From a virus (lineage: Duplodnaviria > Caudoviricetes), in IMG/VR virus record IMGVR_UViG_3300032069_000147, positions 1-55,388 of that record: a stretch of DNA of 55,388 bases. The stretch is one strand, 5' to 3'. The position numbers were made by a program, and so were the translations under genes. The first letter of the stretch is position 1; each line of letters opens with the position of its first letter. This document shows, piece after piece, positions 1 through 47,727 of this stretch. Under the pieces are notes generated by a model. That model was given only the letters and a program-made list of their open reading frames with translations. It did not search any database and was not told the DNA's origin.

Positions 1-127
1 GGTTTTAGCGGGTCAGGGCCTCAAGGGCCATCCCCGCTACGGTAATGAACAGCCAGAAAACAGCGCTCCACTGCAACGCTTCGGCCAGGCGTTTGTTGCG
101 CGTTGCCCAGAGCAGAGCGCTAACGAC
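1..127. repeat. Terminal direct repeat (copy 1); circular contig overlap
   Basis: Identical to 55262-55388; 127 nt is a common assembler k-mer length. Confidence 0.95.
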
Positions 128-190
128 GAACGATAGAAACACGCCGAAGCAGCCTACAGTCCGCGCCACTAGCGAAATTTCATGGACCAT
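5..190 (-). CDS. Small membrane protein
   Basis: 61 aa with two hydrophobic stretches; GGGAGG RBS upstream. Confidence 0.6.
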   Translation of the reverse strand: MVHEISLVARTVGCFGVFLSFVVSALLWATRNKRLAEALQWSAVFWLFITVAGMALEALTR

Positions 191-741
191 GAGCGGCCTC
201 CCTCACGCCTGCAGATGTTATCACACGAGTCTAAGTCCGGAAGCTCGGCAGATGGGATTTGCTTGCGGACCAGGTCAGCTAGATTCTTTCGGGGGACCAG
301 GCCAACCGGCGAGAACGCTGCGTAAGCCACACACGCCGGTTCCCTCACCGCGTAGGCTGCATACGCCGCCGCATAAGCTGCAGAACTCGCCGGATAAGAC
401 AACAAGAACGCCGCGCGCTCCGCTCGGTCGCCCGCAATAGTAACCTCCCGGCGCGTGGCGCGTCCGTCCACCCACGCCCGCGCCGTCGAGATCGCCTTGG
501 CGGCACGGCTTTCGCCGGCGGGAACATGCGTCAGCATATATTCCGCGCACGCACATCCGGCCAGGACAACCTTCTGTCGGGGCGGCCACCCTCGTTTCCC
601 GCACATTGTCCCGACTAACCACATCATCCGGTCGGCGCGATTACATTCCGCCCACGCCTGAGCGAGCGATCTGTCGCCCACCCAGTCGACCGCGCTCTTA
701 CAAGCCCCGAGATTGTTTAGCAAGGTTTTTAATTCCATCAT
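169..741 (-). CDS. Imm5-like (putative immunity protein family) hypothetical protein
   Basis: Motif CACAEYML..VPAGESRAAKAISTARAW plus Ala/Tyr-rich tail; ATGA overlap with upstream gene. Confidence 0.6.
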   Translation of the reverse strand: MMELKTLLNNLGACKSAVDWVGDRSLAQAWAECNRADRMMWLVGTMCGKRGWPPRQKVVLAGCACAEYMLTHVPAGESRAAKAISTARAWVDGRATRREVTIAGDRAERAAFLLSYPASSAAYAAAYAAYAVREPACVAYAAFSPVGLVPRKNLADLVRKQIPSAELPDLDSCDNICRREGGRSWSMKFR

Positions 742-35486: not shown

Positions 35487-37106
35487 TCAGAAATTCATCT
35501 TGCGGAAACTCCCGTGCTCGATCCTGCGCTCCTCCGGTCTCGCCTGGCCGACGACCACCTCGGACGCCGGCATGGTTGCGGTCATCCGCCCGAGTTTGTT
35601 CAGCGCCTGGCTCATGGCGTCGGCGCGGTCCCAGAGCCCCGACTTCTCGCTGTAGCACTTCGAGACCTCATCGACGAAGTCATTGACCCAGCCATAGCCC
35701 GGCATCTCCGGATCGGGCAGATAGACGTTTCCCGCCTCGATGTCCCGGCTCGCCGCGCTCAGTCGGGCGGGCTTGCTGCCCTCAGCACGCACGGCGATCA
35801 GTCGCGGAACGACGTCGTGAAGCTGCGCGATCACAGCCGGCCCGTTCGCGGCATCCTCCACCCAGCGCGCCCCGTCCCGCGGGTACTGTTTATCCCACTG
35901 CTGGAGCTTGCGGCACGTACTCGGGAAATCAAGATGCTCGTGAATCTCTTCGAGCAGATACTTGTTGGCTCCCTTCTTGCGCCAGCGCTGCCCGGCCACG
36001 TAGCTGCTGTCCGTGTGAGCCTTGAATGCCATGTCGAAGGACTGCACATCCTCATCCGCTTCCCATTCCTTCGGCAACGTCGGCATGATGCCTTTCGGGT
36101 CCGGGCACCAGTCGAGCCGGTAGAATCGGAACCAGGCGCGCTTGACGATGCCGCCGCCAACGGGCGACGGCGACTGCTGCACCTGCGCATCGTAGCCGCG
36201 CCGACCGAGGGACGGAATCATGCCGTGGAGCTTCTCCAAGGACCAGTATGCGGCGTGCAAAGGTTCACCCATTTCCCGCGTCACGGTCCGCTTCGAGCGC
36301 GGGAAAATATAAGTGCGGCGGGCGGTAGCCTCGCCTTCCAACAGCACGTGCGTCCAGCGGCCCGGCTCGGTCTTCAGCAGCCAGTTGCTCAGATCCTTCT
36401 CGTTCAATTGCTGGCAGATTACCACGATGCTCGCCGTCTCGGGGTCGTTCACACACTGCGGCACGTTCGTCCGATAGGCCCGGACTCCGCTCTCTATGGC
36501 CGCGTCGTTGTCCATATCGTCTCGGGAATGCGGGTCATCGACCACTAGAAATTGAGCGCCATGTCCGGTGATGGAACCGGTCAGCGACGCCGAGTACATC
36601 ACGCCGGTGCGGTCGTTCTCAAACTGCGTCTTCAGGTTTGCGTCTGCGCGCAGCCGAAACTTGAGCCCCCAGCGCTCTTGAAACCATCGACTCTGAATCA
36701 GGTCGCGCCGCTTGAGCGAGTGCTCCGTGGCGAGCATGGCGTCGTAGCTCAGATACATGTAGCGCAGCGCCGGCTGCCGTATCCAGCTCCAGACAGGCCA
36801 GTGGATCGCCGCGCAATGGCTCTTGCTATGTCGCGGCGGCTCGTTGATCAGCAGGCGCTTGATTTCGCCCGCCGTCACCGCCTCCAAATACTCGCAGATG
36901 TAGCCGATGTGCCAATTGTCCTTGAACGGCGTCTCGGGCTCCAGGACCGGCCAGGCGTGAATTAGGAATTGATGCAGACTTTTCTCGCACGCCTCGGCGT
37001 CTTCCAGTCTACGCTGCTCTTCCTCGTCCGGGCTGAGCACGCTGACAACGTTTCGCCCTATCTCGGCGACGGCCCCGCCTGGCGTGTGATGGTTGGGTCG
37101 CTTCAT
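35487..37106 (-). CDS. terL: Terminase large subunit
   Basis: Walker A PPRHSKS, Walker B LVVDDPH, nuclease SFDMAFK...DAMSQA. Confidence 0.93.
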   Translation of the reverse strand: MKRPNHHTPGGAVAEIGRNVVSVLSPDEEEQRRLEDAEACEKSLHQFLIHAWPVLEPETPFKDNWHIGYICEYLEAVTAGEIKRLLINEPPRHSKSHCAAIHWPVWSWIRQPALRYMYLSYDAMLATEHSLKRRDLIQSRWFQERWGLKFRLRADANLKTQFENDRTGVMYSASLTGSITGHGAQFLVVDDPHSRDDMDNDAAIESGVRAYRTNVPQCVNDPETASIVVICQQLNEKDLSNWLLKTEPGRWTHVLLEGEATARRTYIFPRSKRTVTREMGEPLHAAYWSLEKLHGMIPSLGRRGYDAQVQQSPSPVGGGIVKRAWFRFYRLDWCPDPKGIMPTLPKEWEADEDVQSFDMAFKAHTDSSYVAGQRWRKKGANKYLLEEIHEHLDFPSTCRKLQQWDKQYPRDGARWVEDAANGPAVIAQLHDVVPRLIAVRAEGSKPARLSAASRDIEAGNVYLPDPEMPGYGWVNDFVDEVSKCYSEKSGLWDRADAMSQALNKLGRMTATMPASEVVVGQARPEERRIEHGSFRKMNF

Positions 37107-37828
37107 TTCAAATCCAACTGCTCAACCGTCGGTTCAAACAAAGATGGTTGCGCTTCAACGCGGGCCAACCTCTCTCTAGCAATTTGGCAATAAGCTTCAG
37201 AAATTTCCAGCCCTAGAAAATGCCGCCCTAGCTTCTTCGCGGCCACCGCCATTGTGCCAGAGCCGAGGAATGGATCGAGAATGGTTTCGGCGACGAGCTT
37301 TCCAATCAAATATTGAATCAGAGAAACGGGCTTCTGGTGGGGATGAAAACGCCTCTCATTGCCACAAATGCCAGGGGTCTCCCATGTCGGTATCGTGTGG
37401 CCTCTAATGATGCCGTTATCTCTCGGCCCTATGAATTGGCCGTCCCCAACGATAAAGATCATTTCCCATGACGGCTTCCATGGGAATCTCAAATCCCCTG
37501 AGCCCACTGTCCCCTTATCCCAAATCACGCAGTGTCTGGAGCCTTGCGGCATGGGTTTCTGCCAGAGGCCGAACATGAGGATAGGACCGGAACAAACTCT
37601 CACGCATTCCGCAAGAGCAAGATCGCGCGCGGTAGTATCCGAATCCCCAGCAATTTCCTGTCCCTCCCATGAAGCGCCATGGCTCGAAGTGTGATGTATT
37701 CCGTACGGCGCGTCGGTAATCACGGCATCCACGCAGCCGTCGGGCAACGCCTTCATCGCCTCCAAACAATCCGTACAGAGGACGGTACAGCAATCATACG
37801 GCCCGATCTTTCGCCCGCATCCGGTCAT
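37103..37828 (-). CDS. DNA N4/N6 methyltransferase (beta class)
   Basis: ITDAPY, HPHQKP, ILDPFLGSG. Confidence 0.9.
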   Translation of the reverse strand: MTGCGRKIGPYDCCTVLCTDCLEAMKALPDGCVDAVITDAPYGIHHTSSHGASWEGQEIAGDSDTTARDLALAECVRVCSGPILMFGLWQKPMPQGSRHCVIWDKGTVGSGDLRFPWKPSWEMIFIVGDGQFIGPRDNGIIRGHTIPTWETPGICGNERRFHPHQKPVSLIQYLIGKLVAETILDPFLGSGTMAVAAKKLGRHFLGLEISEAYCQIARERLARVEAQPSLFEPTVEQLDLK

Positions 37829-38497
37829 CTATTCTTCACCTTTCTGCGGTAGCAGCGCCACCGGCCCCTGCGTCAGCTTGGCGAAGCCCTCGGCAATCGC
37901 CCGCAAAGCCGCCTTGTCCTTTACGTGCTCTCGAACTAGATGCGCCATGCCGGAGAAGAGCACCTGCGCTTCGGTCAAGGTAACAATTTCTGCCGACTGT
38001 ACCTCATGTTTCCTGATCGAGTCTATAAGCTTCCGCCGCTGCTCGATGACCCGCATGATCTCGCCCCACGTCTGCCAGTCCGCCGCCCCGCGATTGATCT
38101 TGTCGCCCAATTCGTTCAGCGTCACCGAGACCGTGGCCTTATCGCCGCCATGAAGCGCCTCCTGGAATTCCGCGAACGCCACCTGGACATTCGCCCACAA
38201 CTGCGCCGCCCCGGACTTGTCCACGCGCTCGATCAGTTCCAGAAGCCTGGCCTCCACCAAGCCGACGTCCTTCTCCAGCCTCAGCAGCTCGGGGTCCGAC
38301 ATCGCTGCGCTGAATCTCTTGCCCAAGCCTTTGGGCATGTACTTTGAGCGGAGACCATGTTTCCAAGAGTGCGAGGCTATGCCTTTCGGGTTCAAGCCGC
38401 CATGCCACTTGCAGCGCCCATTTTCTAGCGCCCAGGCTCGGCAGGGTCTTCCCTGGCGACCTTTCGCCCCGCACCTTTTTGCGACGCCGTTGGTCAT
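37829..38497 (-). CDS. Terminase small subunit-like (HGGxSTG-type N-terminus)
   Basis: CGAKGRQGRPC...NGRCKWHGG...KHGLRSKY; upstream of terL. Confidence 0.7.
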   Translation of the reverse strand: MTNGVAKRCGAKGRQGRPCRAWALENGRCKWHGGLNPKGIASHSWKHGLRSKYMPKGLGKRFSAAMSDPELLRLEKDVGLVEARLLELIERVDKSGAAQLWANVQVAFAEFQEALHGGDKATVSVTLNELGDKINRGAADWQTWGEIMRVIEQRRKLIDSIRKHEVQSAEIVTLTEAQVLFSGMAHLVREHVKDKAALRAIAEGFAKLTQGPVALLPQKGEE

Positions 38498-38594
38498 CTA
38501 TTCATGCCCATCTCACGGGCTCGTGAGCTTCGGCTCAAGGCCCATGTCCGCCATCTATTTGGCTAAGTTACTAGCATCATTAACGATAAAACCC

Positions 38595-38623
38595 TTGACT
38601 TCAACAACTTGCAGATATAGATT
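38595..38623 (+). promoter_or_regulatory. Promoter for ASCH gene, likely leaderless
   Basis: TTGACT-N17-TAGATT; 6 nt before ATG; no SD. Confidence 0.65.
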
Positions 38624-38629
38624 GAGATC

Positions 38630-38995
38630 ATGAAAACGCTCTCTATTCGGCAACCTTGGGCGACTACAATTCTGAGACTCGGCAAGGACGTCGAGAATAG
38701 ACGCTGGTCAACTCCCTTTCGCGGTCGAATTCTCATCCACGCCTCAAAACAGATTGATCTCGATGCCTGCCGACAACTCAATATTGATCCAAGTACGCTT
38801 TCGGTCAGCGCCATTCTTGGCTCCGTAGAAATCATCGACTGCATCCGTAATTCCAGCTCCTCATGGGCCGACCCAAATTCTTGGCATTGGATTCTAGCAC
38901 GCCCCGAAGAGTTCAAGAATCCAATTGCTTGCCGAGGCCGCCTGAGTCTGTGGGAATTTCCAATAGCATTGCCTCTGCAAACGGAAAGTCTCTGA
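38630..38995 (+). CDS. ASCH domain protein
   Basis: LSIRQPWA..I..GKDVENR.W....RGRILIHA...GRLSLW. Confidence 0.92.
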   Translation: MKTLSIRQPWATTILRLGKDVENRRWSTPFRGRILIHASKQIDLDACRQLNIDPSTLSVSAILGSVEIIDCIRNSSSSWADPNSWHWILARPEEFKNPIACRGRLSLWEFPIALPLQTESL

Positions 38996-39614
38996 GCCAA
39001 CGCTGCCAATCTGCCGGATGTTTATCCCTCAATTCCTGCAACGCTCCAGGATGAAAATCCAACCCTCCCTGATCTTTACGGCCCAATCCTGGCGGAATCT
39101 CAATGTCCCGTTGCCTCAGATAGTCATAGACTTGGCTCCGCCTCCAACCTCGCAACGGAAAGATGCGCTTCGTTTTGGGATCGTAACCCCGGCACGTTTT
39201 AAGGATTAAAGCCCGCGAGCAGCTGTCATTGCGGCGCCATCCATAAGCAATCCACTCAACTTTGGCATCCCGTCTGAAAATTCTCTCGATGTCTTTCATC
39301 CCAATCTTGGGCACACGAAGATTTTTGAAATGTGGCTGAAGCACATTATTGTTATAGCATCGGCAAAGATCAAAGTGAGGATACATCCGAACCTTAACGC
39401 CGGTCCTCTTCTTAACCGCTTCGGCCCAGTCTTTGACTATCTCAAGCCCTCGGACTCGAAATAAATAATATGCCTCGACTCTGCGAAATAGACGCCAGCA
39501 AAGGTCTAACGTTGCCAAGGAATCCTTTCCGAAGCTGACAGCACAGCCAATCACCTCCGTTTCTTGCCGAACAAGATTCAGTAAATTGACAGCAGAACGA
39601 AGGTGCTCATTCAT
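38913..39614 (-). CDS. PAPS-reductase-like PP-loop protein
   Basis: AVSFGKDS; YGWRRNDS..R; FPLRGW....VYDYL. Confidence 0.8.
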   Translation of the reverse strand: MNEHLRSAVNLLNLVRQETEVIGCAVSFGKDSLATLDLCWRLFRRVEAYYLFRVRGLEIVKDWAEAVKKRTGVKVRMYPHFDLCRCYNNNVLQPHFKNLRVPKIGMKDIERIFRRDAKVEWIAYGWRRNDSCSRALILKTCRGYDPKTKRIFPLRGWRRSQVYDYLRQRDIEIPPGLGRKDQGGLDFHPGALQELRDKHPADWQRWLRDFPFAEAMLLEIPTDSGGLGKQLDS

Positions 39615-40318
39615 CCGGTCATTCCGCCTTTTCCACGTTTCGCAGACTTGGCGTGAATCGGATTTCTCGCCACGAGCTCGAGTTTAATCGCCGTTGCCGC
39701 TATGTAACGCTCGTCTATTGGTAACTTTAGCTCCCGAAGCAGTTTCTCTTTTGCAAGCCGATTTGCAAATACAATTACCAGGTACTTCTCGCTGTCCATC
39801 TTTTCACTTAGCGCCCGATTTTGCTCTCGACGTCCGGCTTTCATCTCGGCTAGTTGGTTCGCATTGCGCTGGACCGATTCTGGAATCTGATTCAAACTCA
39901 GACTGTCAGCTTCCGCCAAGAGCGTTAGTTCTGCCTTCTGGAACCACGGCGCCGTTTTCTTTGCTGGAATTGCCATCAAGGCTTCTACCGCCCATTCGGA
40001 AAGTTCCCCGGTACGATTATCAGCAATGGCCAGCGCCAGCTTTTGCTCCTCGGTAAGACCGCGGCGGCGCACGGCTATCAATTCCTTCCCATCCGCCTCA
40101 ATCACGCGCACGCCTTTCATGCCGATGTTGCCGGCGCCTTCGACCACCCCGTGGCCGGCCAAAATCTTGTTGTTCTCATCGATTACAATCGACCGTGCCG
40201 CGCCGACCGTCTTAAGTGACTTTTCAATCAGTGCAATGCTGCGCTCCCCGTGCCTCCGGAGGTTCGCCGGATCGGGTGTCAAATCCTTGATGTAGATCGG
40301 GTCTTTATTGGGTTTCAT
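39611..40318 (-). CDS. ParB/Srx-like N-terminal domain protein
   Basis: DLTPDPANLRRH...SIVIDENNKILAGHG...IADNRTGELSEW. Confidence 0.8.
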   Translation of the reverse strand: MKPNKDPIYIKDLTPDPANLRRHGERSIALIEKSLKTVGAARSIVIDENNKILAGHGVVEGAGNIGMKGVRVIEADGKELIAVRRRGLTEEQKLALAIADNRTGELSEWAVEALMAIPAKKTAPWFQKAELTLLAEADSLSLNQIPESVQRNANQLAEMKAGRREQNRALSEKMDSEKYLVIVFANRLAKEKLLRELKLPIDERYIAATAIKLELVARNPIHAKSAKRGKGGMTG

Positions 40319-40505
40319 GGTTGGCTCCCTATCATCTCGGCGTGGGGATGGATTCAAAGCCCGGTAGCTCCTGACCGCCCGCCGAGTCTGACATTCCGCT
40401 TTGTCGGGAGTCAAATCCGCCAGAGTGTGAATCTCGCGCGCTTTCGGCTTAGCTGGTTGTTTGCTCATCCTCTGCCGCCTAGTCGATCAAAATCGGAAAG
40501 CCATC

Positions 40506-40776: not shown

Positions 40777-41247
40777 TCATATCTGCTTTCCGCCCCTTTC
40801 CTTCCCTTCGCCGCGCTTCCCAAAGCCGAAGGCCCGCAGCGCCTTTCCGCCGGCCCGCAGCCTCCGCAGCACATCCTGCTTCGCCGCCGGGTCCATCACG
40901 GCTAGCGTCTCCAAGAGGCGCATGCATTCGTCGTGCGTGAGCTTCCCCTTGACTTCGTTTCCTCGCTCGGACACGATGCGCAGATTCTCAAACCAGAAAC
41001 TTCCGCCGCGCGAGACCGGCACATCATGGTCCGCCGAGAAATTTCGCACGGTAATCAGTTCGCCCGCGTAGGGACAGCGCTCGCCCAGTTTGAGCATTAT
41101 GCCGTCGCGCAGTCCTTGCAAACTATAATCCAGCTCGCAGCCAGACCGCGCCGCCAATTCCCGCTGGTGACGATAGATGTTCGCGCTGCGGCTCATCAGT
41201 ATCCGCTGCCGGCAATGCTCAAGCGTCTCTCCGGGCTTCCGTTTCAT
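40777..41247 (-). CDS. HNH endonuclease
   Basis: CPYAG...SADHDVPVSRGG....NLRIV...GNEVKG. Confidence 0.8.
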   Translation of the reverse strand: MKRKPGETLEHCRQRILMSRSANIYRHQRELAARSGCELDYSLQGLRDGIMLKLGERCPYAGELITVRNFSADHDVPVSRGGSFWFENLRIVSERGNEVKGKLTHDECMRLLETLAVMDPAAKQDVLRRLRAGGKALRAFGFGKRGEGKERGGKQI

Positions 41248-41275
41248 GCTTTAACCTCCGCAGCACTACGCGAAC

Positions 41276-41457
41276 AATCGGGAGCGGCACGCTTGCAATG
41301 GTTTTCAGTTCGCGGGTGGCCGCTCCCGATTTCTACAAGAGCGCAGGCGGCATCCTTGTAGTGGTGTTCAAATGGGAAGTGGCCGCCTGCGCCCCCTCCT
41401 TGAATGAGATGGTCGGCGCACAGGTTTTGGTTTTCAGTACGTAAATGGCCGACCATC
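41276..41457 (-). ncRNA. TIGR-like stem-loop guide array, distal block (3 units)
   Basis: Units 41408-41457, 41341-41392, 41276-41331; each stem-CCA-N9-TGAA(A/C)ACCA-N9-(T/C)G-stem. Confidence 0.88.
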
Positions 41458-41465
41458 CCCCTGCT

Positions 41466-41948
41466 TCAGGCCGCCGCTTTCCTGGCTTCCTGATAGGCGG
41501 CCAGAATCTCGCGCCGAAGTTCCCGCCATTCCATCCCCAACAGATTCAGCCGCCGCGAATCCGCCGTGACCCGCGCCTTCAGCCGCGCCAAGACGAACTC
41601 CTTCGCCTCGGCGTCGCAGGAATCGACGAATCCGAACGTCCCGTACTCATCGATTACCCGGATAGTAGCCAGTCTGATCGGCTTGCCATCCTTGCCCCGA
41701 TGCATGTGTATACAGTAGCTGTAAAGGAAGCGGCGATAGACCTCATAGACTCCCGCATCCCAAACCTGCTCGTCCGTGTAGAGCGCGCGGATGCGCCCTC
41801 CGTTCTGCCCCTCATCCCAGTCCCGGAGCGACGCGACGCTGGGCTCGACTTCGTTCTTCTTGCACCATTCGCACCAAGCCAGATAATACACCTCGCCTTC
41901 TGAGATTTTCTTCTGCTTCTTTTTCTCGACCGTTGCCGTGGTATCCAT
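41466..41948 (-). CDS. Unknown 160-aa protein embedded in the guide array
   Basis: GAGGAGG RBS; MDTTATVEK...; bracketed by array units. Confidence 0.75.
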   Translation of the reverse strand: MDTTATVEKKKQKKISEGEVYYLAWCEWCKKNEVEPSVASLRDWDEGQNGGRIRALYTDEQVWDAGVYEVYRRFLYSYCIHMHRGKDGKPIRLATIRVIDEYGTFGFVDSCDAEAKEFVLARLKARVTADSRRLNLLGMEWRELRREILAAYQEARKAAA

Positions 41949-41975
41949 CTTCTTCTCCTCCTCGATTTGGAATTT

Positions 41976-42478
41976 GCAGGCGGCTCGCAGTTCCACGCTG
42001 GATTTCACTGCTACCTTGGCAAGCCGCCTGCGCTTGCGAAGACGCCAGCCAGCCTTTGGATTTCACAAAATAGCTGGGCGTCTTCGCGTTCGATCTTCGG
42101 GCTGGCCCACACAAAAGTAGTGGATTCCAGCCTTACATTGGTAAGCCAGCCCATGGGCGCTGGCTTCAGCAAGTCGGTCAATGGTTTTCACCGCGACAAT
42201 GCCTGAAGCCTCGCATCTTTCTTTCACGGCGCGACGCGGCAACGGTATCCTGGTTTTCACACTTCGTTTGGCCGCAATCGCGCCCCCGAAACTATGCATC
42301 GGCACTGACCTGCTGGTTTTCAGCCGACTTACGGCCGCATGCATAGCTTGCTCTTGCCTGCGAGGGAGCCGGCACGACGTCCGTGGATTACAGCGCCGTG
42401 GTGGCCGCCTCCCCCGCAGGCGCCGTTCCGAGGTCGGCAGCTTCGAAGTGGTTTTCAAGTTTCCCTTGGCCGACCTCG
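41976..42478 (-). ncRNA. TIGR-like stem-loop guide array, proximal block (8 units)
   Basis: Loop repeats (+ strand TGG(T/A)TT(T/C/A)CA) at 41999, 42057, 42121, 42182, 42251, 42314, 42384, 42449; each flanked by 9-nt spacers and unique complementary stems. Confidence 0.9.
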
Positions 42479-43482
42479 AATTTCTTCCCATTACCTGACA
42501 CCCAGATTCTTTTCAGGATTTCCTTCATCATCTTCCGCCGCGCCCGCGCCCCGCAGTGCCCCTGCTTTGTCTTGCAGTTGGGGCATTTCGCGTCGTGCGC
42601 CGCGAATTCCTTGGCGTATTCCACCTCATAAAACTGCCGCCACGGATTCGCCCGATTCCTGATAATGGCCGTTCCGGCCAGATAAACCGCCGTGCGCATG
42701 GCCGGCGACCAATGCGACGCCACGCCCCGCGTCCGCTTCGGCGCTTTGCCATTCTCCACCGACTGGCCGCAGAATCGCCAGAATGCCGCCACGCTCGGGA
42801 ACCTCTCGAAGCCCCCGGAGAAGGCCACGAACGTCGCCGCAGAAATCCACTCCTGGACGTGCAGAATCCTCCGCGCCATTTCGCATTCGGGAATCTTCGC
42901 CGCCAACTTCGCGATGTAGGTGTCAAGCTGCGTGCCCTCTTCTGAGACCACTGACGTGCGAATCTCCCCCAGTTTTTCTAGCGCCTGCTTGAACATCGGC
43001 TCAGCCTTCATTGAATCCTCATCGGCCAAACCCATGTTCCGAGCTTCCTGCTTCACCGCCCGCAGCGCATCTCCGTAGAAATGAACGACGGCGCCGCGAA
43101 GCGAGAGAGCGTGCCGCAACTGAGCGATGTCCGGCCGGGGCTGAAACTCACGGAAAATTCCATCCGGCAATTTCGCCCACGCCGCAACGATCTCTTGCGG
43201 CGGAAGATTCTTCTCGATTCCCGTCTGGTGCCAATGCGTATAAAGCAGCTTCACGCCTCGCTCCGCCAATGCGAACAAGAGACTGTCCGTGGCGCGCACC
43301 GCCGTTAGACGCACAATGTCTCCCGTCTTCAGTGATCTAACGAAGTCGTTCAGCTTTGCCCCGGTTAGGCGCTCAACGCCCTCGCCGTGCGAGACATAAG
43401 CCGTAGGTGTTCGTCTGCCATCGGTCTTCTCGTAGCAGACATGTAGAGCAATGATTTTTTCTCGGTTGAATTTTACTGACAT
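42388..43482 (-). CDS. Tas-like (IS110/Nop-domain) RNA-guided protein with degenerate RuvC-like N-terminus
   Basis: ERFPSVAAFWRFCG...GKAPKRTRG...WSPAMRT...NPWRQFY...ARARRKMMKEILKRIW; adjacent to dual-spacer array. Confidence 0.82.
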   Translation of the reverse strand: MSVKFNREKIIALHVCYEKTDGRRTPTAYVSHGEGVERLTGAKLNDFVRSLKTGDIVRLTAVRATDSLLFALAERGVKLLYTHWHQTGIEKNLPPQEIVAAWAKLPDGIFREFQPRPDIAQLRHALSLRGAVVHFYGDALRAVKQEARNMGLADEDSMKAEPMFKQALEKLGEIRTSVVSEEGTQLDTYIAKLAAKIPECEMARRILHVQEWISAATFVAFSGGFERFPSVAAFWRFCGQSVENGKAPKRTRGVASHWSPAMRTAVYLAGTAIIRNRANPWRQFYEVEYAKEFAAHDAKCPNCKTKQGHCGARARRKMMKEILKRIWVSGNGKKFEVGQGKLENHFEAADLGTAPAGEAATTAL

Positions 43483-43500
43483 CTCCTCTCCTTTTTCGGA

Positions 43501-43953
43501 TTATCGCTTCTCCTTCACACTCCATTTGGGCTCAGGCCCAGCTTTTCGGTGGCACTCGGCGCACAGAGTCGCCAGATTCCGGACTTTCTTGCCGTCTATC
43601 ATAATCCAGATGCGGTCATCTCTCCGTCCCCCGCTCATGCCTCTCCCACGCACGTGGTGAATCTCGGCCTCGTTCGCCAGGCCTTTTCCTGGCGGGCTCA
43701 GGAATTTTCCGCAACTATCGCAGCATCCGCCGTCAAGCAGAAAGACATCCATCTTCCGTTCCCGCCATGCCGCGCCGCTGAGCGCTTCCCGGCCGTCACG
43801 ATAGACGACCCGCAGGCGCTTCTTAGCTCGTTTAAGCTTTGGCGGCTGGGAATCGCGGTCAATCGTCTCGCAGGCGCGAAGGCGACAAACCCAAGCGCGC
43901 TTTGACGGCAGCCAGCGGAGCGTGCGGTTGTGACTCGGACATCGAGGTTTCAT
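43501..43953 (-). CDS. HNH endonuclease
   Basis: CDSCG...EIHHVRGRGMSGG...NLATLCAECH. Confidence 0.8.
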   Translation of the reverse strand: MKPRCPSHNRTLRWLPSKRAWVCRLRACETIDRDSQPPKLKRAKKRLRVVYRDGREALSGAAWRERKMDVFLLDGGCCDSCGKFLSPPGKGLANEAEIHHVRGRGMSGGRRDDRIWIMIDGKKVRNLATLCAECHRKAGPEPKWSVKEKR

Positions 43954-44531
43954 CGTTGCACCTCGCACGCCGACTCTAACGCCGTCAGCGCACTATCATC
44001 GTATCGCAGATCAAAATCAGCGAAGATGGCCTCCAGTGCAACCGTCTTGCTATCCGTCTGATTCAGCCGCTTCGCCTTCTCGATGCACCGCTCGATGACC
44101 GGGACGAACGAACGCGGCACAGTGAAGAACACCTGGACATTGCCTTCCAATAGCAGGCCGGGAACGCGCTCTGATACCGTGTGCTCGAACGTGCGCTCCG
44201 TCTGCGAATTCGCCGCATGAAGCAGTTCCTTCCGCCTCGATGTCGGAACCTTGCTAAGCACAATCGCGTTCGCCAGCGTCAGGGATTCAATCTCCGTCTC
44301 GTCCATCCCGCCGGCGCATAACTCCTCAATCGCGTGCATCCCGGCATAGGCCGTAGACCGGCTGCGCCCGAATTTTGCCTCCACCCAGTCGCCGAAGCGC
44401 TCGTAGCCGAGTTCCTTATAAAATCGTTGCTGCCGGCATTCCTGGCAGAGCTTCGCCACGCGAATCCAGGCCCGCCCAATTATCCGAGCAAGTTCGTCCG
44501 CTTCCTTGTCAAGCTGCTGTGCTCGGGTCAT
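43950..44531 (-). CDS. Putative DNA-binding protein
   Basis: FYKELGYERFGDWVEAKFGRSRSTAY, a common phage motif. Confidence 0.6.
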   Translation of the reverse strand: MTRAQQLDKEADELARIIGRAWIRVAKLCQECRQQRFYKELGYERFGDWVEAKFGRSRSTAYAGMHAIEELCAGGMDETEIESLTLANAIVLSKVPTSRRKELLHAANSQTERTFEHTVSERVPGLLLEGNVQVFFTVPRSFVPVIERCIEKAKRLNQTDSKTVALEAIFADFDLRYDDSALTALESACEVQR

Positions 44532-45477: not shown

Positions 45478-46002
45478 TTAGCCAGGGGTTATTGACCGCG
45501 TCATGCGCTCCGGATGACTTGATGCTATAACCAGATTCCCGCGAAAGCTCCTAGCTTTATAGCTTCTAAAATGCGTGCCGTCTCGGTTGTTTCTGTCATT
45601 GTAGACGATCCAACTTGAGGAATACTCCAGGCGGAAAACTTCCAGATCAAGCAGCGACCATTGTAAAAGTACAGGTGGCTGCTGGCCTCCAAAACCATAG
45701 AAAAACCAATCGCCAAATCCCTGAATGATTTTCGCCAATTCAGTAGGCGAACCCGACTCACGCTCGCTGCGAATGGTAAATTCATACCGATAGGGATAGT
45801 CAGGAGGGTGCGCCACATAGTACTCTGGGCGACGAATCCGCACCGCTATTTTCATGTCTCGGGCTATAAGTATCAGCAGATCCGTGTTCTCCAAAACATC
45901 CATTTCAAAAGGCGCCGGCTCTAGCAGGCGCGGGCCGACAATCCGCTTGACCTCTGGAATGTAAAGATCAGACCACCGCTTGTCGTCTTGCCAAGTAATC
46001 AT
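45478..46002 (-). CDS. Hypothetical protein coupled to MT-A70, possible nuclease fold
   Basis: ATGA overlap with MTase; D....TDL....IAVRIRR; lower GC. Confidence 0.6.
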   Translation of the reverse strand: MITWQDDKRWSDLYIPEVKRIVGPRLLEPAPFEMDVLENTDLLILIARDMKIAVRIRRPEYYVAHPPDYPYRYEFTIRSERESGSPTELAKIIQGFGDWFFYGFGGQQPPVLLQWSLLDLEVFRLEYSSSWIVYNDRNNRDGTHFRSYKARSFRGNLVIASSHPERMTRSITPG

Positions 46003-46991
46003 GAGCTTTCCTTGCCCCAACCCTCGAATCCCGGAATCGCTCGCCGATTAAACATGTCCAGCCGACGGCCCGCCGTCACGCGCGTTAGGGTCTCATAAAA
46101 CTCGGCTGGCTTGACGCTGTGTCCGGTGCGCTCAGCTTCGAATCCGATGAGAAAATTCTTGGTAGTCGTGAAGCTCGGCGATCCCCGGCGCGCATATAGG
46201 CAAAGTTCCAAATTGTACTGCGGCAATCCCACCGGCTGAAATCCCCCCGGCTTCAGCCAGCCGAAGCAGCAAACATACTTGAGTCCCCATGCCTCTAGCA
46301 GTCTGATCGCCGTCGGCAGATAGCGCTGGACGACCCACAGGAACACGTGACAATTCTCAGCCGCGTGCCCGGCGAACCTTTCACCGATTTCGAATCGGAT
46401 CTCATCAAGCGTCATCGTCGGATAGTCAAACGCCACCTGGTTGGGACGCAAATCTCGCTCGATCTTTTCCAGCGGCCATGGAGGGTCGATCACCATCACA
46501 TCGAATTTCCCAGCTAGTTCCTTCGCCTGCAGAGTCTCGATACTGTTAAGTTTCTCCTTAACTTCGACGCGCTTCAGTTCGCGTCGAGCGGCGCCCAGCG
46601 TCAATTCGCCGGAGACGTAGGCCTTCCGCAAGTCTCCAGGCAGGCGAGCTACCGCCTGCGCTTCCATGCTCTCTTTCCGTGTCACGCCGAGTTCGGAGAG
46701 AGTCGGCGCATCCCCGCTGTTCCCAACAGGAACAGCGGGACCCCGCTTTAGACGTCCCTTTGCCCGCTCAGTGGCTTGCAGCAGTTCGCCCATCCGCTCC
46801 TGCGCCAGCCGGGCATACTTCTGCGAATTGGCAACGACCTCGTCACCCAATTTCTTCCGCCGCGCCCAATCGGCTGCTGTCAGAGCGAGATCCTTGAGCT
46901 CCTTTGCTTTCTGCAGGGTCGTCGCCTCGGCTAGCATCTGCGAAGCGCGGCCCATAAGGACCAAGGAATTGCTTGATTTAGATGGGTTCAT
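45999..46991 (-). CDS. MT-A70 family adenine methyltransferase with N-terminal helical domain
   Basis: VIDPPW, YPTMTLDEI, HSVKP, RRLDMFNRR...WGKE. Confidence 0.9.
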   Translation of the reverse strand: MNPSKSSNSLVLMGRASQMLAEATTLQKAKELKDLALTAADWARRKKLGDEVVANSQKYARLAQERMGELLQATERAKGRLKRGPAVPVGNSGDAPTLSELGVTRKESMEAQAVARLPGDLRKAYVSGELTLGAARRELKRVEVKEKLNSIETLQAKELAGKFDVMVIDPPWPLEKIERDLRPNQVAFDYPTMTLDEIRFEIGERFAGHAAENCHVFLWVVQRYLPTAIRLLEAWGLKYVCCFGWLKPGGFQPVGLPQYNLELCLYARRGSPSFTTTKNFLIGFEAERTGHSVKPAEFYETLTRVTAGRRLDMFNRRAIPGFEGWGKESS

Positions 46992-47727
46992 GGTTCCCCG
47001 CCGCCTCCGCCTTGTAGTCTTGCGCCTGCGTCTGAGCGTGTCCGACAATCGGACGCGGCTTGACCGGCCCGTCCGGCTTGCTTTCAATCGCGATCCGCGC
47101 GCCGTTCTTGAGCGCCGCGTCGCAACTGTCGCACACGAGCAAGCCTTTGAAGTACGGGATCCAGTTCTGCGTCTGTATGGGATATTTCTTCGCCAGCCAG
47201 ACGATCATCGGATTAATCATCTTCGTGAATTCGTGACCACAGAAGGGGCAGCGGCATTTGTCCGCCGAGCATTCCACGTGAATCGCTTCGTAGGCGTCCG
47301 GCCCGACGAAGGCCAGCAAGGCTCGGGCTTCGGATACTTTTGGCAGCGTGGAGGCCCTCCGCCTCGCTTCACCGACGGCCGACTGGGCCTTCTTGTACTC
47401 CACGATTGCCTTGCGCGCCCGCTCGAGTTTCGCGCAGCACTGGTGTTCGGGCGGCCCGAACTTCACCGTCATCACCGGGCGCTCCTCGATCATCCGGTTA
47501 CGCCTCGCCTCTTTCGCCAGCCAATAGATCGCCGCCGGCCGGGGTTCCCTCTGCCCCTCCTGACTGCTCTTATATTGCTCGATCGCTGTGGCAAAGTCCC
47601 GCACATCCACATCAGCGAACGTGCGGTACCAGGCTTCACGTAGTTTTTTCAACTGCCCTTCGGAACGGTTCGAGAAATATATGCTCTCAAGCTGGAGCAT
47701 TTCTGCGTCGAAGTCGCTCTGCTGCAC
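46978..47727 (-). CDS. Replication-associated protein (helicase loader-like N-terminus)
   Basis: Follows initiator; AWY..FADV...F..AI......PRPAAI. Confidence 0.5.
   Translation of the reverse strand: MQQSDFDAEMLQLESIYFSNRSEGQLKKLREAWYRTFADVDVRDFATAIEQYKSSQEGQREPRPAAIYWLAKEARRNRMIEERPVMTVKFGPPEHQCCAKLERARKAIVEYKKAQSAVGEARRRASTLPKVSEARALLAFVGPDAYEAIHVECSADKCRCPFCGHEFTKMINPMIVWLAKKYPIQTQNWIPYFKGLLVCDSCDAALKNGARIAIESKPDGPVKPRPIVGHAQTQAQDYKAEAAGNHEPI

What the first reader, a model, noticed from the sequence alone, without database searches (positions are those of the whole stretch)
41276..43482. Phage-encoded TIGR-Tas-like RNA-guided system with an 11-unit stem-loop dual-spacer array
Seen (- strand): each unit is stem-CCA-spacerA(9)-loop repeat(9)-spacerB(9)-TG-complementary stem, e.g. 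CGAGGTCGG CCA AGGGAAACT TGAAAACCA CTTCGAAGC TG CCGACCTCG. Spacer A/B pairs in order: AGGGAAACT/CTTCGAAGC, CCACGGCGC/CGGACGTCG, TAAGTCGGC/GCAGGTCAG, AACGAAGTG/GGATACCGT, TTGTCGCGG/TTGACCGAC, ATGTAAGGC/CTACTTTTG, GCTATTTTG/AAGGCTGGC, AGGTAGCAG/GCGTGGAAC, TTTACGTAC/AAACCTGTG, CTTCCCATT/CTACAAGGA, CCCGCGAAC/TTGCAAGCG. Every stem has a different sequence yet still pairs, some by G-U, so structure is conserved at the RNA level and repeat finders would miss it. The upstream gene has an IS110/Nop-like domain. Known: this matches TIGR-Tas (CCA/UG boxes, two 9-nt spacers targeting opposite DNA strands). Inference: 11 programmable guides against host or competing elements.
Basis: partly seen in the sequence, partly recalled or inferred. 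Interest (0 to 1): 0.95.

Follow-up and report, generated by a model that had tools for sequence, protein, structure and literature searches.

The report
Phage stem-loop TIGR array with TasR
A complete 55-kb phage genome carries a known type of RNA-guided DNA-binding system (TIGR-Tas): eleven hairpin guide RNAs and a Tas protein that probably cannot cut DNA. Near-identical relatives keep the hairpins but carry different 9-base guide segments.

Summary

The upstream 364-aa protein is a Tas protein of TasR architecture: an RNase H/RuvC-like domain, a coiled coil and a Nop domain. Its best structural match is TaTasR (PDB 9MTY, Z 20.2). The position of the catalytic Asp holds an invariant His, and no acidic residue is conserved in the N-terminal domain.

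This kind of system is already published. Faure 2025 describes stem-loop TIGR arrays. Xu 2026 describes inactive TasR repressors, guide units inside the tas gene, and 2,559 catalogued stem-loop arrays. This scan has also noted such arrays on other DNA.

Two results go beyond the texts I read:
- **Spacer replacement in place.** Two relatives are 99.4% identical outside the units but only 41 of 144 spacer positions agree. Spacers A and B change independently.
- **A conserved partner gene.** The 160-aa ORF inside the array is a probable remote member (hhalign 88%) of an unannotated family found beside tas in five other lineages.

No natural target, host or expression data were found.

The parts
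42388..43482 (-). tasR-like gene, 364 aa (P0001). Residues about 9-110 form an RNase H/RuvC-like domain with H14 at the Asp position. A coiled coil covers about 117-177 and a Nop-type C-terminal domain runs to about 330. The tail 331-364 is disordered and is encoded by array units 1-2.
   Evidence: ORF and RBS. PDB sequence matches. AF2 model pLDDT 92. Foldseek and VIA hits to 9MTY. Conservation.
42426..42481 (-). tigRNA unit 1 (spacers AGGGAAACT / CTTCGAAGC), inside the 3' end of the tas frame
42361..42416 (-). tigRNA unit 2 (CCACGGCGC / CGGACGTCG). Its loop TGTAATCCA supplies the tas stop codon.
42291..42346 (-). tigRNA unit 3 (TAAGTCGGC / GCAGGTCAG). Box C reads CCG and the stem has one bulge.
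42228..42283 (-). tigRNA unit 4 (AACGAAGTG / GGATACCGT)
42159..42214 (-). tigRNA unit 5 (TTGTCGCGG / TTGACCGAC). The outer boxes are degenerate (GCA, TT).
42098..42153 (-). tigRNA unit 6 (ATGTAAGGC / CTACTTTTG)
42034..42089 (-). tigRNA unit 7 (GCTATTTTG / AAGGCTGGC). It is the only unit whose spacers are kept in relative L001 (8 of 9 and 8 of 9).
41976..42031 (-). tigRNA unit 8 (AGGTAGCAG / GCGTGGAAC)
41466..41948 (-). orfX, 160 aa (P0169), embedded between units 8 and 9 with its own RBS. It is a probable remote member of a family encoded next to tas in other lineages. Its function is unknown.
   Evidence: No Pfam, PHROG or Atlas match.
41405..41460 (-). tigRNA unit 9 (TTTACGTAC / AAACCTGTG). 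Box D reads CG.
41339..41394 (-). tigRNA unit 10 (CTTCCCATT / CTACAAGGA)
41276..41331 (-). tigRNA unit 11 (CCCGCGAAC / TTGCAAGCG)
43501..43968 (-). Stand-alone HNH endonuclease gene directly upstream of tas. It is syntenic in the close clade only, and membership of the system is not shown.
   Evidence: Pfam HNH 3.6e-05. PHROG HNH families. L001 86% identity. None of 10 flanking ORFs tested in five distant loci has an HNH domain.
40777..41247 (-). Stand-alone HNH / endonuclease VII-like gene directly downstream of unit 11. It is syntenic in the close clade only, and membership of the system is not shown.
   Evidence: PHROG 1035 and 5718. L001 and L003 85-86% identity.

Best explanation
This is a stem-loop TIGR-Tas system on a complete tailed-phage genome. 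The minus strand most likely gives one transcript that carries tas, eight guide units, orfX and three more units. Each unit would be released as a hairpin tigRNA. Its variable stem closes a loop of box C (CCA), spacer A (9 nt), a UG-AAAA-CCA loop, spacer B (9 nt) and box D (UG).

A dimer of the 364-aa Tas protein would bind one tigRNA through its Nop domains. It would then read an 18-bp DNA site with spacer A on one strand and spacer B on the other. On one strand the site reads spacer A followed by the reverse complement of spacer B.

The RuvC-like domain has His in place of the catalytic Asp and no conserved acidic residues. The complex therefore most likely binds and blocks DNA, repressing transcription or replication, rather than cutting it. 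Xu et al. showed this for inactive TasR and for TasA.

**Shown here:** the array anatomy, RNA-level stem conservation, Tas membership by sequence and fold, the phage context, in-place replacement of spacers among relatives, and the conserved partner gene.

**Inferred:** transcription and processing, dimer formation, DNA binding without cleavage, and the target geometry.
For: **Array.** There are 11 units and 8 exact motif matches against 0.09 expected. All 11 units fold. Stem covariation is 84.5% paired against 53.4% in shuffles. The boxes are those defined in PMC12045711 section 8.

**Protein.**
- phmmer against the PDB gives 9MTY TasR E 1.9e-15 and TasH E 0.0025.
- A profile of 65 relatives gives 1.1e-36 and 3.2e-16.
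- The AF2 model has pLDDT 92.0 and pTM 0.85.
- Foldseek puts 9MTY first at E 2.7e-12.
- VIA gives Z 20.2 with 281 of 294 residues aligned, model 9..339 against chain 6..317. TasH scores 17.7, IS621 16.4 and Nop56/58 7.5.

**Inactive RuvC.** H14 is invariant and H85 is at least 90% conserved. No acidic residue reaches 90% in residues 1-110 of 65 sequences. By the alignment offset, H14 falls on TaTasR D11 (D11A is the published dead mutant).

**Disordered tail.** The tail encoded by units 1-2 has pLDDT 70 to 44. This fits the published rule for intragenic guides.

**Relatives.** My motif script finds two or more units of the same design in 13 of 16 related loci. By eye, deviant units are also present in L009.

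**Function of relatives.** Inactive TasR and TasA repress transcription in a guide-dependent way (10.64898/2026.09.09.750476 section 12).

**Phage context.** TerL 5.4e-75, portal 8e-41, protease 3.2e-13. The record has direct terminal repeats and is rated 100% complete.
Against: - There are no expression or processing data.
- No target was found for any guide. None of the 22 18-mers (both orders) matches the phage's own genome at 2 mismatches or fewer. No guide from any held locus matches the window or any other held locus.
- 'Inactive' rests on conservation and an alignment offset, not on a residue-level structural superposition or an assay. An invariant His at the Asp position, together with the conserved H85, could form a different active site.
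- Two HNH genes flank the locus in the close clade and could in principle supply cleavage.
- No sigma-70-like promoter or terminator that would define the transcript was found, and the host is unknown.
Confidence: 0.8

Rival explanations
1. The system is a working nuclease. Either the invariant H14/H85 pocket of the RuvC-like domain is a non-canonical active site for DNA or for pre-tigRNA, or one of the two flanking stand-alone HNH endonucleases is recruited to sites marked by the Tas-tigRNA complex. The second option would be a split form of TasH.
For: H14 is invariant in 65 sequences and H85 is at least 90% conserved, which is more than a decaying site would keep. HNH genes sit on both sides of the locus and are syntenic in L001 and L003 at 85-86% identity, and weakly in L004. 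[quoted passage not shown]
Against: None of 10 flanking ORFs tested in five distant loci of the same Tas family has an HNH Pfam match at E 0.01 or better. HNH linkage is therefore local to this clade. Neither HNH protein matches TasH in the PDB by sequence. Stand-alone HNH genes are common in phage genomes (general knowledge). The two published inactive TasR proteins did not cut DNA.
Confidence: 0.12
2. The guides regulate the phage's own genes or genome, for example by timing transcription or marking an origin or packaging site, rather than acting on foreign DNA.
For: Xu et al. list regulation of the viral life cycle as one possible role. The locus sits among DNA-metabolism genes, including ParB-like and methyltransferase genes.
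Against: None of the 22 candidate 18-mers (11 guides, both orders) matches the complete 55,388-bp genome at 2 mismatches or fewer. The best matches have 3-4 mismatches. Guides from four close relatives also have no site in this genome. Rapid spacer replacement among near-identical relatives fits poorly with fixed self-targets.
Confidence: 0.05
3. The gene is an IS110-family transposase and the hairpins are bridge-RNA-like or terminal structures of a mobile element.
For: Pfam Transposase_20 is the only Pfam hit (E 0.00097). PHROG 4285 is labelled 'transposase' (2.1e-18). IS621 and ISCro4 are strong structural matches (Z 16.4-16.5).
Against: The Pfam hit scores 19.9 bits, below the family cut-off of 21.3. 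The profile E-values against IS621 and ISCro4 are only 0.081 and 0.03, against 1.1e-36 for TasR. No DEDD acidic residues are conserved. There are eleven tandem two-spacer units rather than one two-loop bridge RNA. The locus is syntenic in relatives rather than mobile.
Confidence: 0.02

Closest known systems
Stem-loop TIGR systems with catalytically inactive TasR (PateTasR, CsTasR; Xu et al. 2026, bioRxiv 10.64898/2026.09.09.750476; I read its Results sections 5-8, 11 and 12 and its Discussion, section 13)
   Same: [quoted passage not shown]
- A Tas protein with an N-terminal RuvC-like domain that lacks the canonical catalytic residues.
- Guide units that may lie inside the 3' end of tas, coding for a disordered stretch.
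- No long C-terminal Y/H processing loop: the fold ends near residue 330.
   Different: - Box C here is CCA, as in TaTasR, not the CUU described for PateTasR.
- The host is a tailed phage, not a CPR bacterium.
- An invariant His occupies the Asp position, whereas PateTasR has an Arg filling the pocket.
- A conserved partner ORF lies in or beside the array.
- No sequence or structure of PateTasR or CsTasR was available for direct comparison.
TaTasR, the dual-repeat TIGR nuclease (PDB 9MTY; Faure et al. 2025, PMC12045711)
   Same: It is the best sequence and fold match. It shares the three-domain order, the same UG/CCA boxes, an A-rich loop and 9-nt spacers.
   Different: TaTasR has an active RuvC (D11) and cuts DNA. 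Its guides are 36-nt units from an array with a conserved edge repeat, not hairpins with unit-specific stems.
PlTasA stem-loop array (Peromyscus leucopus gut contig; PMC12045711 section 9; 10.64898/2026.08.11.744272 section 5)
   Same: Thirteen stem-loop units in subarrays separated by roughly 450 nt. The units are expressed and processed singly. Heteroduplexes are 9 bp on opposite strands.
   Different: PlTasA has no RuvC-like domain. Its separators are described as intergenic, whereas here the 483-nt separator is a conserved ORF.
IS110-family bridge-RNA recombinases (IS621, ISCro4)
   Same: A RuvC-like domain plus a Nop-like RNA-binding fold (Z 16.4-16.5), and a guide RNA with paired loops.
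   Different: Here there is no conserved DEDD set, only marginal profile E-values (0.03-0.08), an array of simple two-spacer units, and no sign of mobility.
Box C/D snoRNP core protein Nop5/Nop56/58
   Same: The coiled coil plus Nop domain (Z 7.5, 148 residues aligned), and two guide segments next to C and D boxes.
   Different: The similarity is weak. I saw no fibrillarin or L7Ae partner among the annotated neighbours. The boxes are reduced to 2-3 nt, and the family's targets are DNA rather than RNA.

Membership tests
TIGR-Tas | A protein with a Tas-type Nop (RNA-binding C-terminal) domain homologous to characterised Tas proteins | tested here: met
   9MTY E 1.9e-15 for the single sequence and 1.1e-36 for the profile. 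TasH E 0.0025 and 3.2e-16. Z 20.2 and 17.7.
TIGR-Tas | A coiled-coil domain that makes the Tas dimer | tested here: inconclusive
   Long helices 117-149 and 162-177 are modelled with high confidence and lie within the 281 residues aligned to TasR. Dimer formation itself was not tested.
TIGR-Tas | An array of units, each with two spacers of about 9 nt, each spacer preceded by box C (CCA) and followed by box D (UG) | tested here: met
   There are 11 units. Eight match exactly against 0.09 expected, and three have one or two box changes. The box definition is from PMC12045711 section 8.
TIGR-Tas, stem-loop type | Variable but consistently palindromic flanks in place of a conserved edge repeat | tested here: met
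   All 11 units fold. In 47 units, 84.5% of stem cells pair against 53.4% in shuffles, and all 13 stem pairs show changes on both sides.
TIGR-Tas | The array is transcribed and processed into single tigRNAs bound by Tas | not testable with these tools
   This needs small-RNA sequencing or an RNP pull-down.
TIGR-Tas | Guide-dependent binding of DNA, with spacers A and B pairing to opposite strands | not testable with these tools
   This needs EMSA or reporter assays. No natural target was found.
TasR subclass | An N-terminal RuvC / RNase H-like domain | tested here: met
   The model has a strand-strand-strand-helix-strand-helix-strand order in residues 10-81. The alignment to TasR starts at residue 9. 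Residues 6-109 also match RNase H-like domains of MutS, MOC1 and RNase D at Z 5.4-7.0.
Nuclease-active TasR | Conserved acidic catalytic residues (D11 and partners in TaTasR) | tested here: not met
   H14 is invariant at the position that the alignment offset places on D11. No acidic residue reaches 90% conservation in residues 1-110 of 65 sequences. The residue match is by offset, not by superposed coordinates.
IS110 transposase | Pfam IS110 domains above threshold and a DEDD catalytic set | tested here: not met
   Transposase_20 scores 19.9 bits against a cut-off of 21.3, and no other Pfam family was listed at E up to 0.1. No acidic residues are conserved.
CRISPR-Cas | An array of one conserved repeat of 25-36 nt with spacers of about 30 nt, plus cas genes | tested here: not met
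   The only conserved elements are the 9-nt loop and the 2-3-nt boxes. The neighbours are HNH, ParB-like and methyltransferase genes, not cas genes.

The most novel reading that the evidence does not exclude
In this Tas clade the guide array is rewritten in place. Each 9-nt spacer behaves as an independently replaceable or hypermutable cassette bounded by CCA and TG, while the unit-specific stems, loops and neighbouring genes stay fixed. The conserved unknown partner protein encoded inside or beside the array (orfX here) would be part of the machinery that renews or matures the guides. If so, this would be the first handle on how TIGR arrays obtain new spacers, which both source papers call unknown.
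Probability: 0.25. Interest if true: 0.85.

Novelty: new member of a known kind. Interest (0 to 1): 0.45.

Why it matters
The system itself adds one more phage example to a family with thousands of catalogued arrays. The useful part is comparative.

Both source papers state that it is unknown how TIGR arrays gain spacers and what the spacers target. Here two contigs agree at 1230 of 1237 positions outside the units and have no difference at all across the 480-nt embedded gene. Yet their spacers differ at about 70% of positions, with the change confined to the 9-nt windows between CCA and TG.

Ordinary mutation cannot produce this pattern, so there must be local replacement or local hypermutation. 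Spacers A and B change independently, and there is no reverse transcriptase in the complete genome.

The clade also carries a conserved gene of unknown function in or next to the array. That gene is an obvious candidate to test for guide renewal, guide processing or effector function. This phage clade is therefore a tractable model for the spacer-renewal question.

Tried and rejected
**Self-targets.** I searched the window for all 22 18-mers (11 guides, both orders). None matched at 2 mismatches or fewer.

**Targets among relatives.** I searched the window and 15 loci with all guides the script found in the window and in 12 loci (10 of the window's 11 units passed its filter; L007 was dropped as a duplicate of L002). 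There were no matches at 2 mismatches or fewer. Shuffled A/B pairings gave 8 two-mismatch matches in 5 replicates.

**Public viral contigs.** One scan with the unit-7 site, degenerate at two positions, gave a single hit. It lies in a 48% GC contig inside a long tail-type gene, and no other guide matches that contig. I judged it chance. I did not scan the other guides. An 18-mer is expected to hit collections of this size by chance, and the caps do not allow 11 scans.

**Host.**
- There are no tRNA genes.
- There is no Tas relative in 185,579 species genomes.
- TerL has a 76% identical match on a 23-kb contig binned into a Methylococcaceae MAG. This is weak evidence for the host, and that MAG has no Tas.
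- I searched guides 1-4 of 11 in the 64 genomes of that family at 1 mismatch or fewer. Matches were 0, 5, 0 and 0. The corresponding counts for the reversed control pattern were 0, 3, 1 and 0. No match was exact. Guides 5-11 were not searched.

Fourteen of 22 spacers are absent elsewhere in the genome, against 14.6 +/- 2.3 for shuffled spacers. There is no signal.

**Other negative checks.**
- Spacer GC is 0.55 against 0.586 for the genome, and there is no positional base bias.
- There is no Rfam match at E up to 1.
- The sigma-70 promoter and terminator scan gave nothing usable.
- No reverse transcriptase (PF00078) is present in the complete genome, so a DGR is rejected.

**orfX and its relatives.** There are no Pfam, PHROG or Atlas leads.

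**Structure and complex prediction.** The single-sequence AF2 model was poor (pLDDT 39.7) and was replaced by the alignment-based model. The complex-prediction job for Tas(1-335) with orfX returned no answer (score 0.00, controls not run). It counts neither for nor against binding.

**Sequencing runs.** No RNA holder was listed. Laying contigs of four DNA runs showed relatives whose contigs break off or diverge at the spacers. These are contigs, so no expression or within-strain claim is made.

**Residue-level superposition.** A superposition on TaTasR was not possible, because the tools return ranges only.

**Supplements.** Supplements of the papers were not seen. Table S1 of Faure et al. and the TIGRSafari catalogue may already list this contig or its relatives.

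**Searches behind 'not in print'.**
- Term searches for turnover, hypervariab, closely related, spacer content, same spacers and different spacers in PMC12045711; and for turnover, hypervariab, closely related, spacer diversity, identical stem and orthologous in the Xu preprint.
- Term searches for accessory, auxiliary, neighbor, operon and co-occur in the Xu preprint.
- One library search for 'tigRNA' with 'spacer acquisition'.

These searches are narrow, and subscription papers are not covered.
Full report
**What is there**

On the minus strand between 42481 and 41276 lie eleven units of one design. Each has a 10-14 bp stem whose sequence differs from unit to unit, then CCA, nine variable bases, a nine-base loop (TGAAAACCA or a one- or two-base variant), nine more variable bases, TG, and the complementary stem arm.

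Eight units match CCA-N9-TG-N4-CCA-N9-TG exactly, where 0.09 are expected and none of 100 shuffles gives 8. Units 3, 5 and 9 have one or two box changes.

Each unit folds with its outer stem in the minimum-energy structure, with z from -2.8 to -6.3. I aligned 47 units: 11 from the window and 36 from five related loci.
- 84.5% of stem cells pair, against 53.4% when partners are shuffled and 34-47% when partners are slid.
- All 13 stem pairs show changes on both sides.

The relatives' units were picked partly by stem score, so that figure leans high. The window's own 11 units were picked by the loop motif alone.

**The protein**

The ORF at 42388-43482 (364 aa) starts behind a GGAGAGGAG ribosome-binding site.

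Sequence evidence:
- Pfam gives only a sub-threshold IS110 C-terminal hit (19.9 bits against a cut-off of 21.3).
- Against the PDB, the protein alone matches TaTasR (9MTY) at E 1.9e-15 and TasH at 0.0025.
- A profile of 65 relatives matches them at 1.1e-36 and 3.2e-16. IS621 and ISCro4 reach only 0.081 and 0.03.

Structural evidence:
- The alignment-based AlphaFold model is confident (pLDDT 92.0, pTM 0.85) up to about residue 330.
- Foldseek ranks 9MTY first at E 2.7e-12.
- VIA-align gives Z 20.2 with 281 of 294 residues aligned, from model residue 9 to 339. TasH scores 17.7, IS621 16.4 and Nop56/58 7.5.

The first 110 residues form an RNase H-like sheet, so the architecture is TasR, not TasA. 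In 65 family members H14 is invariant and H85 nearly so, and no acidic residue in this domain is conserved. By the offset of the structural alignment, H14 sits where TaTasR has D11, the residue whose mutation kills cleavage.

I read the domain as non-catalytic for DNA in the canonical sense. An invariant His is more than simple decay would leave, and that point stays open.

Residues 331-364 are encoded by unit 1 and half of unit 2, and the stop codon is in the loop of unit 2. This tail is modelled as disordered. In relatives it keeps only the residues encoded by stems and loops, for example the E-N-H/Q from the loop.

**Context**

The window is the whole record: a 55,388-bp virus genome with direct terminal repeats, rated complete. 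It encodes a large terminase, portal and head protease. Next to the locus lie a ParB-like protein, methyltransferases and two small HNH endonucleases.

**Comparison with print**

Faure et al. 2025 (PMC12045711; I read sections 4, 6, 8, 9, 10, 24, 44 and the legends) define TIGR arrays, the UG and CCA boxes, and the two-strand reading of an 18-bp site. They also describe stem-loop arrays, including one split into three subarrays.

Xu et al. 2026 (bioRxiv 10.64898/2026.09.09.750476; I read Results sections 5-8, 11 and 12 and the Discussion) report:
- 2,559 catalogued stem-loop arrays;
- guide units inside the tas reading frame that fall in disordered regions;
- solved structures of two stem-loop TasR proteins with inactive RuvC domains;
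- guide-dependent transcriptional repression by such proteins.

The finding is therefore a correct identification of a published kind of system. Notes of this scan hold the same words for 386 findings in at least 225 genomes.

**Target geometry**

Faure et al. report breaks with 8-nt 3' overhangs (section 7). I worked through both possible orders of the two half-sites. Only the order 'spacer A followed by the reverse complement of spacer B' on one strand gives 3' overhangs. This is my derivation, not a statement of the paper.

**Targets**

None was found.
- No candidate site exists in the phage's own genome at 2 mismatches or fewer, in either order.
- No guide from any held locus matches the window or any other held locus.
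- One scan of public viral contigs gave a single hit that looks like chance.
- The only host lead is a 76% identical terminase on a contig binned with a Methylococcaceae MAG.
- Guides 1-4 of 11, searched in the 64 genomes of that family, gave no exact match. One-mismatch matches were at control level.

**Spacer renewal**

Four close relatives (Tas 77-87% identical) have the same units in the same order, with the same stems.

Identity between the window and L001:

| Element | Identical positions |
|---|---|
| Stems | 242 of 264 |
| Loops | 97 of 99 |
| Box C | 30 of 33 |
| Box D | 20 of 22 |
| Embedded ORF | 425 of 482 |
| Spacer A | 35 of 99 |
| Spacer B | 24 of 98 |

The sharpest case is L004 against L005:

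| Element | Identical positions |
|---|---|
| Outside the units | 1230 of 1237 |
| Embedded ORF | no difference at all |
| Stems | 209 of 216 |
| Loops | 80 of 81 |
| Boxes | 45 of 45 |
| Spacers, all units | 59 of 162 |
| Spacers, without the one unit identical in both | 41 of 144 |

The Fisher test gives p = 6e-106. L005 also has two extra units.

In 84 orthologous spacer comparisons, 76 have 0-5 matches, as random 9-mers would. Eight have 6-9 matches, where about 1.3 are expected.

One spacer of a unit can be kept while the other is replaced. In L004/L005, unit 1 has A at 6 of 9 and B at 0 of 9, and unit 5 has A at 2 of 9 and B at 7 of 9. The few stem differences next to replaced spacers stay compatible with pairing through G-U.

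Neutral drift cannot give this pattern, because the flanks are essentially unchanged. The change must be local. The data do not separate cassette replacement from local hypermutation run to saturation. The four cases at 6-7 of 9 lean slightly towards gradual change, but the numbers are small.

The complete genome has no reverse transcriptase, so a diversity-generating retroelement is out. Contigs from four public DNA runs hold relatives. Their contigs break or diverge at the spacers and carry further spacer sets. Because these are contigs, I draw no within-strain conclusion.

I found no description of such in-place replacement in the two source papers or by one library search. Earlier notes of this scan report it on other DNA.

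**The partner gene**

The 160-aa ORF between units 8 and 9 has its own ribosome-binding site. It is conserved at 65-88% amino-acid identity in the four close relatives, at the same place. Only three further clusters exist in the large protein collection, all at 65% identity or more. It has no Pfam, PHROG or Atlas match.

In more distant Tas loci an ORF of 182-229 aa lies in or beside the array. It is found in L002 (between units upstream of tas), L009, L010 and L013 (downstream). These four are homologous to one another, with BLASTP E from 1e-14 to 4e-34.

A search that started from this family found one new viral locus, L027, and that locus again has a tas gene directly upstream. The other locus it returned is the contig of L002.

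The family has 13 clusters, all unnamed and without Pfam domains. A profile of orfX aligns to a profile of 14 family members over 113 columns with probability 88% and E 3e-06. With only four members the probability was 32%.

orfX is therefore probably a shortened member of a partner family linked to this Tas clade in six lineages. Loci without it are too short to judge. Its role is unknown.

HNH genes are not part of the conserved set. None of 10 flanking ORFs tested in five distant loci has an HNH domain.

**Verdict**

This is a genuine, well-supported stem-loop TIGR system with a TasR-type protein that is probably nuclease-inactive, on a complete phage genome. It is a new member of a known kind. 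The comparative observations on spacer renewal and on the partner gene are what is worth following up.

Noticed in passing
L015:270-1010: A metagenome fragment whose Tas C-terminus is 55% identical to this one (residues 260-337). It carries units at a fixed 45-nt period with a conserved edge repeat and only 3 bp of stem. This is a dual-repeat-type array beside a fragment of a related Tas, so this Tas family may span both array types.
   Followed up: no
window 42520-42600 (Tas residues about 296-310): A conserved H...C-x2-C...H-C cluster (HDAKCPNCKTKQGHCG) lies in an insertion of the Nop domain. H296 and H309 are at least 90% conserved in 65 sequences, and TaTasR lacks the cysteines. It may be a metal-binding site.
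   Followed up: no
L009:5930-6350: A roughly 220-nt module of two guide units is duplicated in tandem behind tas. The two copies differ almost only in the spacer windows. The loops deviate from TG....CCA, so my motif script missed them.
   Followed up: partly
L027:3020-3260: Hairpin units with deviant outer boxes (for example CTG ... CG) lie between tas and the partner gene. The array design drifts within the family.
   Followed up: partly
window 41200-43500, run X1: The run that holds 94% of the sampled words of the window's stretch also holds contigs of a second relative, with 40-64 changed letters per 350-400 bases laid. At unit 1 a contig of this run carries other spacers; its spacer A is 8 of 9 identical to that of L001. 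Related phages with different guide sets therefore co-occur in one run.
   Followed up: partly
window 37103-40468 and 45999-47087: The locus is surrounded by DNA-modification and DNA-binding genes: a DNA methyltransferase (PHROG 67, 6.8e-46), a PAPS-reductase-like protein, a ParB-like protein (2.6e-23) and an MT-A70 methyltransferase (2.5e-14). Faure et al. noted a ParB-like partner for some TasA systems with dual-repeat arrays. Here the ParB-like gene is separated from the array by an HNH gene, and its link to the system is not shown.
   Followed up: no
L005:664-870: Compared with its near-identical relative L004, L005 has two extra units whose stems copy those of units 1 and 2 but whose spacers are new. 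Arrays therefore also grow by local duplication followed by spacer change.
   Followed up: partly
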